Assembly (NCBI GenBank): GCA_964647025.1
Contig: CAZYFU010000010.1
Coordinates: 10,047-74,046, forward strand
DNA: 64,000 nucleotides
Origin: an uncultured Myxococcales bacterium
GTDB lineage: Bacteria > Myxococcota_A > Polyangia > Fen-1088
Reading direction: 5' to 3'
Shown here piece by piece: positions 16,926 to 18,905 of this stretch. Under the pieces are notes generated by a model, which worked only from the letters and a program-made list of their open reading frames with translations, was not told the origin of the DNA and made no database searches. Within the stretch, counting starts at the first letter, position 1, and the number at the start of each line of letters is the position of its first letter. Both the position numbers and the translations under genes were made by a program.

Positions 16926-18905
16926 ATGCAGCTCAAATCTCCTGCGTGGCTTGTGGCAGCAGCCGTCCCTTTCCTCGCGTGTGCCAACGCTGACGTCATC
17001 ACCCCTGGCGCGGGCGGTGGCGGTAGTGGGGGCGGGGGCACCCCTGACGCCTCCATCATCCTCCCCGACGCGCTCGCCATCGGAATCAAGCAGGACGTCA
17101 AGCCCATCGTGCGAACCGGCTCCGACGCCAAGCCAGGGCCCAACTGCGGCAACGGCGAGCTGACCAAGGACGAGGCCTGCGACGACGGGAACAACAACGA
17201 CGGCGATGGCTGCGCCGCCAACTGCCTCAGCGTGGACCAGGGCTACAAGTGCGTGACGCCCGGTACGGCGTGCACCAAGGTTGCCCGCTGTGGTGACGGC
17301 TTGGTCGTGTTCCCCGAGCAGTGCGATGATGGCAACAAGAACAACGACGACGGCTGTTCCGACGCCTGCAAGATCGAGGTCACGTACAAGTGCGACGGCA
17401 ACCCCAGCGTGTGCACGCACACCACGTGTGGCGACGGCAAGATCGAGGGGGCGGAGAGCTGCGAGGACGGCAACAACCTGCCGTTCGACGGTTGCTCGGC
17501 CGAATGTACCAACGAACCCAAGTGCACGAGCGGTGTCTGCACCTCTCGTTGTGGTGATGGGATCGTGCTCGGCGAAGACTGTGACGATGGCAACAACACC
17601 GACGGCGATGGCTGCTCGGCCGACTGCAAGGTCGAGAGCGGCTTCAAGTGTGATCAGCCGACCCTCGGCGACAAGATGAAGGTCCCCGCCGTGTACCGCG
17701 ACTTCAACTATCGCAACCCGAGCGACTTCGAGGCCGGCGTCACCGGTTCGAAGACCCCGACCACGGGTCTGGTCAAGAGCGAGCTCGATGCCAACGGCAA
17801 GCCCGTGTACACCGGGGTCACCGGCAGCGCAGTTCACATCGAAAGCGCCGCTTCGTTCGCCAAGTGGTACACCAACGTCGAAGGCGTCAACCACGCGACG
17901 ACCGGCAAGCTGACCCTCTGGACCAACGGCAAGGGTGGCTATGTGAACCGGTACAAGGAGGACGGGACGCAGTACTTCAACACCGAGCCAGCCTACTACT
18001 GCGGAAACGTCGGCTCGGAGAAGGAAGACGACGAGGGGAACCCAATTCCCTGCACGTCGAAGTACGCCACCGAGACCGACTGCGACAAGCTCGCCGCCAA
18101 GGGCGAGGAGATGCTGCCAGGGAGCTGCGTCGCCACCAACGGTTCCTACACCGCCAGGTTCATTGTCTCGAAGATGGATGGCAACCCTTGCTTCTTCCCG
18201 GTCGACGACGACAACTTCTCGAAGGACAGAAACTACTCTCAGATTCCTCCGTACTACGACGCCTCGAAGTCGTGGCCGAAACAGACCGACGACACCGGCG
18301 CCGTGATCATGCACAACTTCAGCTTCACCAGCGAGGTGCGCTATTGGTTCAAGTTCGAGAAGAGCCAGACCTACACCCTCGACTTCGTGGGTGACGACGA
18401 CGTCTGGGTCTTCATCAACGGCAAGCTCGCAGTCGACCTGGGCGGCATCCACTCGCCGGTCAGTGGCAGCATCACGATCGGCTCGAACGGCAACGGCACC
18501 ACCACGGTGACGTCGTTCGATGACCAGGGCGTGGCGACCACCCCGACCACGTCGACCGTCAACCTCGGCCTGCAGGACGGCAAGGTCTACGAGGCGGCCG
18601 TCTTCCAAGCCGAGCGGCAGACCACCGGCTCGTCGTACAAGCTGACCTTGAGCGGGTTCAACGCCGCGCCCAGCCTATGCAAGCCCGACTGCGGCGACGG
18701 CGTCCTGCAAATCGGCGAGGAGTGCGACGACGGTGATCAAAACGGCAAGGGCGGCTACGGTAGCTGCGCCTCCGACTGCACCCTGCAGGCCGGCTTCTGC
18801 GGCGACGGCACGGTCCAAGATGACGAGGAGTGCGACGACGGCGCCTTGAACGGAACCGCCGACCACTGTCCGTCCGGCTGCCACTTCCTGATTCCGATCC
18901 TGTAG
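16926..18905 (+). CDS. secreted protein with Myxococcales-type Cys-rich repeats and a PA14/fibro-slime-like domain
   Basis: Signal peptide [22 protein letters not shown]. At least five N-terminal and two C-terminal repeats of CGDG-x-(EQCDDGN-x3-DGCS-x-C) (Myxo disulfide-rich repeat). The central domain carries [23 protein letters not shown] (PA14/fibro-slime motif). ggag RBS. Confidence 0.8.
   Translation: [659 protein letters not shown]
17150..17660. repeat. tandem degenerate coding repeats (about 130 nt units) specifying Myxococcales Cys-rich repeats
   Basis: Recurrent motif …gacgacgg(c/g)aacaa(c/g)aacgacggcgatggctgc…tgc at about 17185, 17325, 17455, 17585, and again at 18725 and 18835. 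Confidence 0.6.

What the first reader, a model, noticed from the sequence alone, without database searches (positions are those of the whole stretch)
16926..18905. Cys-rich-repeat/PA14-fibro-slime secreted protein immediately downstream of the cellulase
Myxococcales-specific disulfide-rich repeats (CGDG…EECDDGN…GDGCS…C) flank a domain carrying the [23 protein letters not shown] motif. PA14/fibro-slime domains are carbohydrate-binding and occur in Fibrobacter cellulolytic systems. Adjacency to GH45 suggests a polysaccharide-binding or adhesion partner for cellulose degradation.
Basis: partly seen in the sequence, partly recalled or inferred. Interest (0 to 1): 0.5.

Follow-up and report, generated by a model that had tools for sequence, protein, structure and literature searches.

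The report
Surface lectin-like lipoprotein beside a cellulase
This gene encodes an ordinary member of a very large, already auto-annotated family of myxobacterial surface proteins (a sugar-binding-type PA14/"fibro-slime" head on disulfide-rich repeats), and its link to the neighbouring cellulase is confined to one lineage and remains unproven.

Summary

New points: the protein is probably a lipoprotein, because the lipobox Cys19 is invariant in 60 homologues. The repeats are not Myxococcales-specific. The family is very large (>6,400 full-length hits; 4,741 cluster representatives for the central domain), and close relatives are already labelled "fibro-slime domain-containing protein".

GH45 and this gene are adjacent in every locus of one Polyangia lineage (about 22 loci). 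There the pair sits between housekeeping genes that are equally syntenic. None of about 74 non-syntenic homologue loci has a GH45 nearby, and none of 5 non-syntenic GH45 loci has a fibro-slime gene nearby. The two genes have different conserved upstream elements.

Best reading: an outer-membrane-tethered, probably Ca2+-dependent glycan-binding adhesin. Cellulose or beta-glucan is a candidate ligand, not a demonstrated one. It is a new member of a known kind and of low interest.

The parts
16926..18905 (+). Gene for the 659-aa fibro-slime/PA14 protein with Cys-rich repeats
   Evidence: ORF. Pfam and NCBIfam hits. The exact sequence is in the public collection, and its cluster mates are named 'fibro-slime domain-containing protein'.
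16893..16918 (+). Conserved upstream box ATCGGGTACATTT (16893-16905) and GGAG ribosome-binding site (16915-16918); likely the gene's own promoter -10 region and 5' UTR
   Evidence: This is the only conserved part of the GH45-FS spacer across syntenic loci. The box occurs once in the window. The promoter role is inferred.
16926..16982 (+). Signal peptide with lipobox ([19 protein letters not shown]); Cys19 is the predicted lipidated residue
   Evidence: Cys19 is invariant in 60 homologues, all with [AG]C at the end of a hydrophobic stretch. Lipidation itself is inferred.
16983..17144 (+). Gly/Ser/Pro-rich, poorly conserved linker (aa 20-73)
   Evidence: pLDDT is below 50. Mean identity to homologues is 0.35.
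17145..17672 (+). Four TIGR02232/DUF4215 Cys-rich repeats (aa 74-249), read as a disulfide-bonded stalk
   Evidence: The Cys, Asp and Gly positions are invariant. The stalk role is inferred by analogy to TraA (PMC3325183).
17673..18689 (+). Extended PA14/fibro-slime central domain (aa 250-588), which behaves as one conserved unit
18312..18647 (+). Core matched by TIGR02148 (aa 463-573) and PF07691 (aa 466-574)
18390..18401 (+). GDDD (aa 489-492); D491-D492 are the candidate equivalent of the Ca2+/sugar-binding 'DcisD' pair of flocculin-type PA14 lectins
   Evidence: D491 and D492 are invariant in 65 diverse relatives. hhalign places them on D160-D161 of Flo1, whose sequence I recalled from memory (E 0.08). 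The assignment is inferred, not shown.
18468..18569 (+). Hypervariable, indel-rich loop inside the PA14 core (aa 515-548)
   Evidence: Identity is 0.28 and gap fraction 0.40, against 0.81-0.83 identity for the flanking core.
18690..18902 (+). Two C-terminal TIGR02232/DUF4215 repeats (aa 589-659); no C-terminal sorting tag
   Evidence: No MYXO-CTERM or other NCBIfam hit at E <= 0.1.
15353..16651 (+). Neighbouring GH45 endoglucanase gene. It is itself lipobox-bearing, with Gly/Ser linkers and a weak ShK-like Cys module, and has no recognised CBM
   Evidence: PF02015 E 7e-36 and ShK E 0.014. The N-terminus MRFGAV...FVAC is conserved. It is always directly upstream of this gene in the syntenic lineage.

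Best explanation
The gene encodes an envelope-tethered lectin-type adhesin. A type II (lipoprotein) signal peptide is cleaved at the invariant Cys19, which is lipidated and anchors the protein. The most likely location is the outer membrane or cell surface. A flexible Gly-rich linker and four disulfide-bonded Cys-rich repeats act as a stalk. The stalk presents an enlarged PA14 ('fibro-slime') beta-sandwich head, followed by two further repeats. The head most likely binds a polysaccharide through a Ca2+ ion held by the invariant Asp pair in GDDDVWVF. The adjacent hypervariable loop probably tunes specificity. The ligand is not determined. Cellulose or another beta-glucan is one candidate, because a CBM-less GH45 lipoprotein is the fixed neighbour in this lineage, but the family as a whole is not tied to cellulases. 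Shown here: domain content, PA14 fold, conservation pattern and gene neighbourhood. Inferred: lipidation, surface location, Ca2+ and glycan binding, and ligand identity.

For: The lipobox Cys is invariant in 60 homologues. GDDD, DLGG.H and E563-R564 are invariant or nearly so in 60 close and 65 diverse relatives. hhalign puts D491-D492 on the flocculin DcisD pair. A variable loop lies within an otherwise conserved core.

The same architecture (DUF4215 plus PA14) is present in 54-55 of 65 diverse representatives. Several Polyangia genomes carry multiple copies in unrelated neighbourhoods, as expected for a general adhesin or lectin family.

Literature precedent exists for PA14 plus a Cys-rich stalk as a surface receptor, in TraA (PMC3325183). 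Fibro-slime proteins also have a role in adhesion in Fibrobacter (PMC4668043).
Against: No binding data exist for any myxobacterial member. Not all PA14 domains bind sugars; anthrax PA does not (PMC3325183). The DcisD equivalence rests on a weak alignment (E 0.08) to a sequence recalled from memory, and I could not inspect the model coordinates. Only about 130-140 of about 340 central residues superpose on known PA14 domains, so the remainder is uncharacterised. Outer-membrane or surface localisation cannot be read from the sequence.
Confidence: 0.55

Rival explanations
1. One reading: the protein is a dedicated cellulose-binding or adhesion partner of the adjacent GH45. It supplies in trans the carbohydrate-binding module that the enzyme lacks, as fibro-slime proteins are proposed to do in Fibrobacter succinogenes.
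For: GH45 is directly upstream and co-directional in every locus of this lineage that covers the region. That is the window, 9 genome or assembly loci and 13 metagenome loci, even where the protein has diverged to 62-64% identity and GH45 to 57-62%. Both proteins carry lipoboxes and Gly-rich linkers. The GH45 has no recognised CBM. In Fibrobacter, fibro-slime genes are up-regulated on cellulose and antibodies against them reduce adhesion (PMC4668043). One of 65 diverse relatives carries a CBM_3.
Against: The adjacency is not independent of general synteny. OAH sulfhydrylase, serS, the 289-aa gene and HU/IHF keep the same order in the same loci. None of about 74 non-syntenic homologue loci has a GH45 within about 8 kb, and there is no recurrent neighbour at all. 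None of 5 non-syntenic myxobacterial GH45 loci has a fibro-slime gene; they sit with GH5, GH43, PL and pectinesterase genes instead. The spacer is 68-275 nt and unconserved, apart from the fibro-slime gene's own upstream box, which is not found upstream of GH45. The rest of the window is housekeeping and holds no cellulose-utilisation locus.
Confidence: 0.2
2. A cell-cell or self-recognition receptor of the TraA/flocculin type, in which homotypic or glycan-mediated contacts between sibling cells drive social behaviour.
For: The building blocks are the same as in TraA: a PA14 head plus Cys-rich repeats in a myxobacterial envelope protein (PMC3325183). Dictyostelium Psi/DicA1 signalling proteins also combine PA14 with Cys-rich repeats. 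The protein evolves much faster than its housekeeping neighbours and has a hypervariable loop.
Against: There is no match to the TraA repeat model TIGR04201 or to MYXO-CTERM (TIGR03901) at E <= 0.1. No traB/OmpA partner is present; serS lies downstream. The domain order differs, with repeats on both sides and an N-terminal lipid anchor. The PA14 core is the most conserved part of the protein (0.81-0.83 identity), whereas TraA specificity lies in a polymorphic PA14 domain (PMC3820747 and PMC6372800 abstracts).
Confidence: 0.1
3. Not a lectin. The elaborated PA14 domain would bind a protein or other non-glycan ligand, or serve structurally in the extracellular matrix, or be released as a soluble factor, like anthrax PA-type PA14 or the Dictyostelium PSI factors.
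For: Only about 40% of the central domain superposes on known PA14 lectins. No PDB relative is detectable by sequence. Some PA14 domains lack sugar binding. In Fibrobacter, fibro-slime proteins are found mostly in the extracellular medium.
Against: The Asp pair and surrounding motif that carry the Ca2+/sugar site in PA14 lectins are invariant. The best structural matches are all sugar-binding PA14 modules.
Confidence: 0.1

Closest known systems
Fibro-slime domain proteins of Fibrobacter succinogenes (TIGR02148; for example the 180-kDa cellulose-binding protein and Fisuc_0377, 1474, 1979, 2031)
   Same: It shares the fibro-slime/PA14 signature domain (74 bits against a cut-off of 45). It is an envelope or extracellular protein and lies next to a cellulase in this lineage. 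The Fibrobacter proteins are implicated in adhesion to cellulose (PMC4668043).
   Different: The phylum differs (Polyangia). Here the domain is embedded in DUF4215/TIGR02232 repeats and anchored by an N-terminal lipobox. No expression or binding data exist. The family here is not generally associated with CAZymes.
TraA outer-membrane-exchange receptor of Myxococcus xanthus (PA14 + TIGR04201 Cys-rich repeats + MYXO-CTERM)
   Same: It is a myxobacterial envelope protein that combines a distant PA14 lectin-like head with a disulfide-rich repeat stalk. A conserved Asp-Asp Ca2+ site is proposed for TraA (PMC3325183).
   Different: The repeat family is different (TIGR02232, not TIGR04201). There is no MYXO-CTERM and no traB neighbour. 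The anchor is N-terminal, repeats lie on both sides of the head, and the PA14 core is conserved rather than polymorphic.
Fungal PA14 adhesins (Flo1/Flo5, Epa1/6, Cea1) and bacterial RTX-adhesin PA14 modules (6m8m, MpIBP 6x95)
   Different: Sequence identity is only 10-17%. About 200 extra residues, including four conserved Cys, are inserted in the head. The stalk and anchor chemistry differ.
Dictyostelium PsiA/DicA1 (PA14/fibro-slime + Dicty_CTDC Cys-rich repeats)
   Same: The TIGR02148 signature is shared between Fibrobacter and slime-mould proteins (stated from my own knowledge of how that model was built; not tested here). The architecture is a PA14 domain plus Cys-rich repeats.
   Different: These are eukaryotic secreted signalling factors, and the repeat family is different (PF00526).

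Membership tests
Fibro-slime domain (NCBIfam TIGR02148) | HMM score above the curated cut-off (45 bits) | tested here: met
   74.1 bits, E 9.4e-21, aa 463-573.
Fibro-slime domain (NCBIfam TIGR02148) | Signature GDDDxWVFxNxxLxxDLGGxH | tested here: met
   aa 489-509 read [21 protein letters not shown]. The motif is invariant or nearly invariant in 60 and 65 relatives.
PA14 domain (Pfam PF07691) | HMM score above the gathering threshold (24 bits) | tested here: met
   36.9 bits, E 4e-9, aa 466-574, covering profile positions 45-130 of 147.
PA14 domain (Pfam PF07691) | PA14 beta-sandwich fold | tested here: met
Ca2+-dependent PA14 lectins (flocculin/Epa/MpIBP type) | DcisD Asp pair plus a third ligand in CBL2 forming a Ca2+/sugar site | tested here: inconclusive
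   D491-D492 are invariant and align to Flo1 D160-D161, but the hhalign E-value is only 0.08 and the Flo1 sequence was recalled from memory. E563 as the CBL2 ligand is my own motif alignment.
Myxococcus Cys-rich repeat (TIGR02232 / Pfam DUF4215) | Tandem ~40-aa repeats CGDG..E.CDDGN...GDGCS..C scoring above the cut-off | tested here: met
   TIGR02232 173 bits with 6 stretches; DUF4215 115.6 bits. Repeat starts are listed.
Bacterial lipoprotein | Signal peptide ending in a lipobox [LVI..][ASTVI..][GAS]-C | tested here: met
   The sequence is ...VPFLA-C19. Cys is invariant and preceded by A or G in homologues. Lipidation itself is not testable here.
TraA-type outer-membrane-exchange receptor | TIGR04201 repeats and MYXO-CTERM (TIGR03901) sorting tag | tested here: not met
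   The NCBIfam scan at E <= 0.1 returned only TIGR02232 and TIGR02148. The C-terminus ends ...CHFLIPIL, inside a repeat.
TraA-type outer-membrane-exchange receptor | Adjacent traB (OmpA-domain) gene | tested here: not met
   Downstream is serS and upstream is GH45.
Fibrobacter-type cellulose-adhesion fibro-slime protein (functional class) | Binds cellulose, is induced on cellulose, and mediates adhesion | not testable with these tools
   Only the literature on Fibrobacter is available (PMC4668043). No data exist for Polyangia.
Recognised carbohydrate-binding modules (Pfam CBM models) | Match to a known CBM profile | tested here: not met
   There is no CBM family among the Pfam hits at E <= 0.1. 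Only 1 of 65 relatives carries CBM_3.
Conserved GH45 + fibro-slime gene pair (functional operon) | Adjacency recurs independently of general synteny | tested here: not met
   The pair is present only in the one syntenic lineage. It is absent from about 74 other fibro-slime loci and from 5 other GH45 loci.

The most novel reading that the evidence does not exclude
In this uncultured Polyangia lineage, the CBM-less GH45 lipoprotein and the fibro-slime lipoprotein would form a minimal two-protein surface cellulase system. The PA14 head would act in trans as the substrate-binding module. This would extend the Fibrobacter 'fibro-slime adhesion' model to myxobacteria and give the fibro-slime domain a defined ligand for the first time.
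Probability: 0.18. Interest if true: 0.5.

Novelty: new member of a known kind. Interest (0 to 1): 0.2.

Why it matters
The fibro-slime domain and the DUF4215/TIGR02232 repeat both lack a defined biochemical function, even though thousands of copies occur in soil Polyangia. This small, well-conserved 659-aa member sits in a fixed pair with a GH45. That makes it a convenient candidate for a first binding or structural study of the extended PA14 'fibro-slime' head. As a genome feature it is ordinary: automatic pipelines already name its close relatives, and nothing in the locus suggests a new kind of system.

Tried and rejected
- Sequence searches of the PDB with the whole protein, the A1 profile and the PA14 segment found nothing relevant.
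- The afdb50 fold library was unavailable.
- A search for a recurrent neighbour among 80 genome loci found none.
- The neighbours of distant homologues L063, L009 and L007 were scanned. They were a permease, a TonB-dependent receptor or had no hit, and none was a CAZyme.
- The XRE/cupin regulator was considered as a dedicated regulator of the pair. I rejected it as obligatory because tblastn found no XRE/cupin match in L037, L092, L096 and L118, which still carry the pair.
- The GC-rich hairpin after the GH45 stop codon (16657-16673) folds no better than shuffled sequence (z -0.78) and is not conserved, so it is not a credible terminator call. The consensus promoter/terminator scan found nothing useful.
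- I looked for a shared operator upstream of both genes and found none.
- I tried to find the single CBM_3-bearing relative among the longest representatives and did not find it.
- The metagenome scan with the downstream 289-aa gene was meant to find relatives that keep the flanks but lack the pair. It returned only the same lineage (>=77% identity), so whether the two genes were gained together could not be tested.
- There are no paralogues of the gene in the window.

Full report
**Observation.** It starts at ATG 16926, stops at 18903-18905 and encodes 659 aa. A GGAG lies 7 nt upstream of the ATG, and GC3 of 0.86 is typical of coding sequence in this 65% GC window. The quoted motifs are present. 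There are six CG[DN]G...CDDG...GC...C repeats starting at aa 74, 122, 168, 209, 589 and 625, and [23 protein letters not shown] lies at aa 487-509.

- TIGR02232: E 5e-52, six stretches.
- TIGR02148 Fibro_Slime: 74.1 bits against a cut-off of 45, aa 463-573.
- DUF4215: E 1e-33.
- PA14: 36.9 bits against a cut-off of 24, aa 466-574.

The upstream gene (15353..16651) is a GH45 (PF02015, E 7e-36).

**Anatomy.** The N-terminus [19 protein letters not shown] is a lipoprotein-type signal. In an alignment of 60 homologues the Cys is invariant, and in the syntenic orthologues examined it is preceded by A or G. A poorly conserved, low-confidence Gly-rich linker follows at aa 20-73. Then come four Cys-rich repeats (aa 74-249), a central domain of about 340 aa (aa 250-588) and two more repeats that run to the C-terminus. 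There is no C-terminal sorting tag.

- PA14 inserts of GH31 and GH3 enzymes.

Only about 130-140 residues superpose. The head is therefore a PA14 core enlarged by about 200 residues of insertions, which include four conserved cysteines (C359, C376, C386, C401). No solved structure is detectable by sequence.

The PA14 core is the best conserved part of the protein, at 0.81-0.83 identity. It contains one hypervariable, indel-rich loop at aa 515-548 (identity 0.28). D491 and D492 are invariant even among 65 diverse representatives. hhalign places them on D160-D161 of Flo1, the Ca2+/sugar-binding DcisD pair of flocculins. This is a weak alignment (E 0.08), and the Flo1 sequence came from my memory, so I treat the Ca2+ site as inferred.

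**Family.** The protein is one of a very large family. There are more than 6,400 full-length hits in the 90% clustered database. The central domain alone finds 4,741 50%-cluster representatives at E <= 1e-3. In one genome per species, 498 stretches encode a relative, almost all in Polyangia (Polyangiaceae, Nannocystaceae, Sorangium, Labilithrix, Plesiocystis), and several genomes carry more than one copy. Of 65 diverse representatives, 54 have DUF4215 repeats and 55 have PA14. Only one has a CBM_3, and two have T9SS tails. The exact sequence is already in NCBI on an 86-kb contig, and its cluster mates are named 'fibro-slime domain-containing protein'.

**The GH45 link.**

1. *Forward test.* Among 80 genome loci, GH45 is next to the gene only in six (L001-L004, L006, L037). 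These six also share OAH sulfhydrylase, an XRE/cupin regulator, serS, a 289-aa gene and HU/IHF in the same order. The same arrangement is seen in L081, L086 and L092, at 62-64% identity. It is also seen in all 13 metagenome loci that reach far enough upstream. Homologues at 61% and 58% identity sit in unrelated contexts: a GDSL lipase in one case, an SDR and M66 peptidase in the other. No neighbour family recurs among the non-syntenic loci.
2. *Reverse test.* Five myxobacterial GH45 genes at 49-56% identity in other contexts have no fibro-slime neighbour. They lie near GH5, GH43, polysaccharide-lyase, pectinesterase or GH16-CBM6 genes.
3. *Regulatory test.* The spacer between the two genes is 68-275 nt and unconserved, except for a box ATCGGGTACATTT plus GGAGG just upstream of the fibro-slime ATG. 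GH45 has a different conserved block of about 75 nt upstream. The box occurs only once in the window. The hairpin after the GH45 stop codon folds no better than shuffled sequence.

The rest of the window is core housekeeping: Lon, ClpB, S41 protease, YggS, serS, PBP1 and nuo genes.

The pair is thus stably retained in one lineage. Both proteins diverge much faster than their neighbours: FS is 64-90% and GH45 57-68% identical, against 88-94% for serS and 83-89% for OAH sulfhydrylase. There is no independent recurrence of the pairing. Points in its favour remain. Both proteins are predicted lipoproteins with Gly-rich tethers, the GH45 has no recognised CBM, and its YWDCCKPSC and FDLLVPGGGVG catalytic motifs look intact (sequence, read against my own knowledge of GH45).

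**Mechanism.** I commit to a lipid-anchored, stalked, PA14-type lectin or adhesin. It most likely binds a polysaccharide through a Ca2+ ion held by D491-D492, with the 515-548 loop shaping specificity (confidence about 0.55). Dedicated cellulose binding for GH45 is a narrower version that I rate at about 0.2. A TraA/flocculin-like social recognition role rates about 0.1. The TraA-defining repeat model, MYXO-CTERM and traB are all absent, and the PA14 core is conserved rather than polymorphic. A non-lectin role rates about 0.1.

**Comparison and novelty.** By profile and fold, the protein is a member of the fibro-slime/PA14 and TIGR02232/DUF4215 families. It works most like the PA14 adhesins of fungi and bacteria, and it resembles TraA in design without being a TraA. 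[quoted passage not shown] The repeats are not restricted to myxobacteria.

**Verdict.** This is a new member of a known kind and is already auto-annotated. Interest is low (0.2). The one modestly interesting possibility is a two-lipoprotein GH45 plus lectin module, which I rate at about 0.18 probability.

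Noticed in passing
window 15353-16651 (+): The GH45 is itself a predicted lipoprotein (MRFGAVSTITLLSAVAFVA-C, conserved in orthologues). It has about 190 aa of Gly/Ser-rich linker, a weak ShK-like six-Cys module (CTDEPPPQTPTCADWAAWNTCSADWFKNYCNRSCGRC) and no recognised CBM. This is an unusual architecture for a bacterial GH45.
   Followed up: partly
window 16893-16918: The box ATCGGGTACATTT plus GGAG upstream of the fibro-slime ATG is conserved across syntenic loci, while the rest of the spacer is not. It occurs once in the window. It is probably the gene's own -10 region and leader.
   Followed up: partly
window ~15270-15352: A block of about 75 nt upstream of the GH45 ATG is conserved across orthologous loci (GTGTTnTTAC..CTGGAC..TTCACCATTG..ATTCAGGAG). 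It may be a promoter, operator or leader, and it is unrelated to the box upstream of the fibro-slime gene.
   Followed up: partly
window 14413-15081 (-); loci L037, L092, L096, L118: An XRE-HTH/cupin regulator is transcribed divergently from GH45. tblastn finds no match to it in several otherwise syntenic loci that keep the GH45-fibro-slime pair, so it is not an obligate regulator of the pair. A 46%-identical XRE/cupin also lies 3.4 kb upstream of a distant fibro-slime homologue in L063.
   Followed up: partly
loci L094-L120 compared with window 12996-23546: Within one lineage the two surface proteins diverge far faster (fibro-slime 64-90%, GH45 57-68% identity) than the flanking housekeeping genes (serS 87-95%, OAH sulfhydrylase 83-89%). 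The PEP-utilising protein on the other side is also fast-evolving (52-69%).
   Followed up: no
L090:12238-12780 (Myxococcota assembly GCA_037975565.1): Near a non-syntenic GH45 lies a bacterial GH16-CBM6-CBM35 protein carrying Dicty_CTDC (PF00526) Cys-rich repeats, the repeat type otherwise known from Dictyostelium PA14 proteins.
   Followed up: no
window 20246-21115 (+): A 289-aa protein with no Pfam hit has an N-terminal hydrophobic segment and a Pro-rich tract. It is 77-91% conserved and always lies between serS and the HU/IHF gene in this lineage.
   Followed up: no
window 46163-51470 (+): AT skew is strongly negative here (-0.22 to -0.28). The region coincides with three Proton_antipo_M genes (nuoL/M/N-like), so the skew reflects membrane-protein codon and amino-acid bias and is not an anomaly.
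   Followed up: yes
window 55537-58524 (+): A 995-aa protein combines an N-terminal Lamin Tail Domain with a C-terminal PPDK_N (PEP-utilising, ATP-binding) domain, which is an odd fusion.
   Followed up: no
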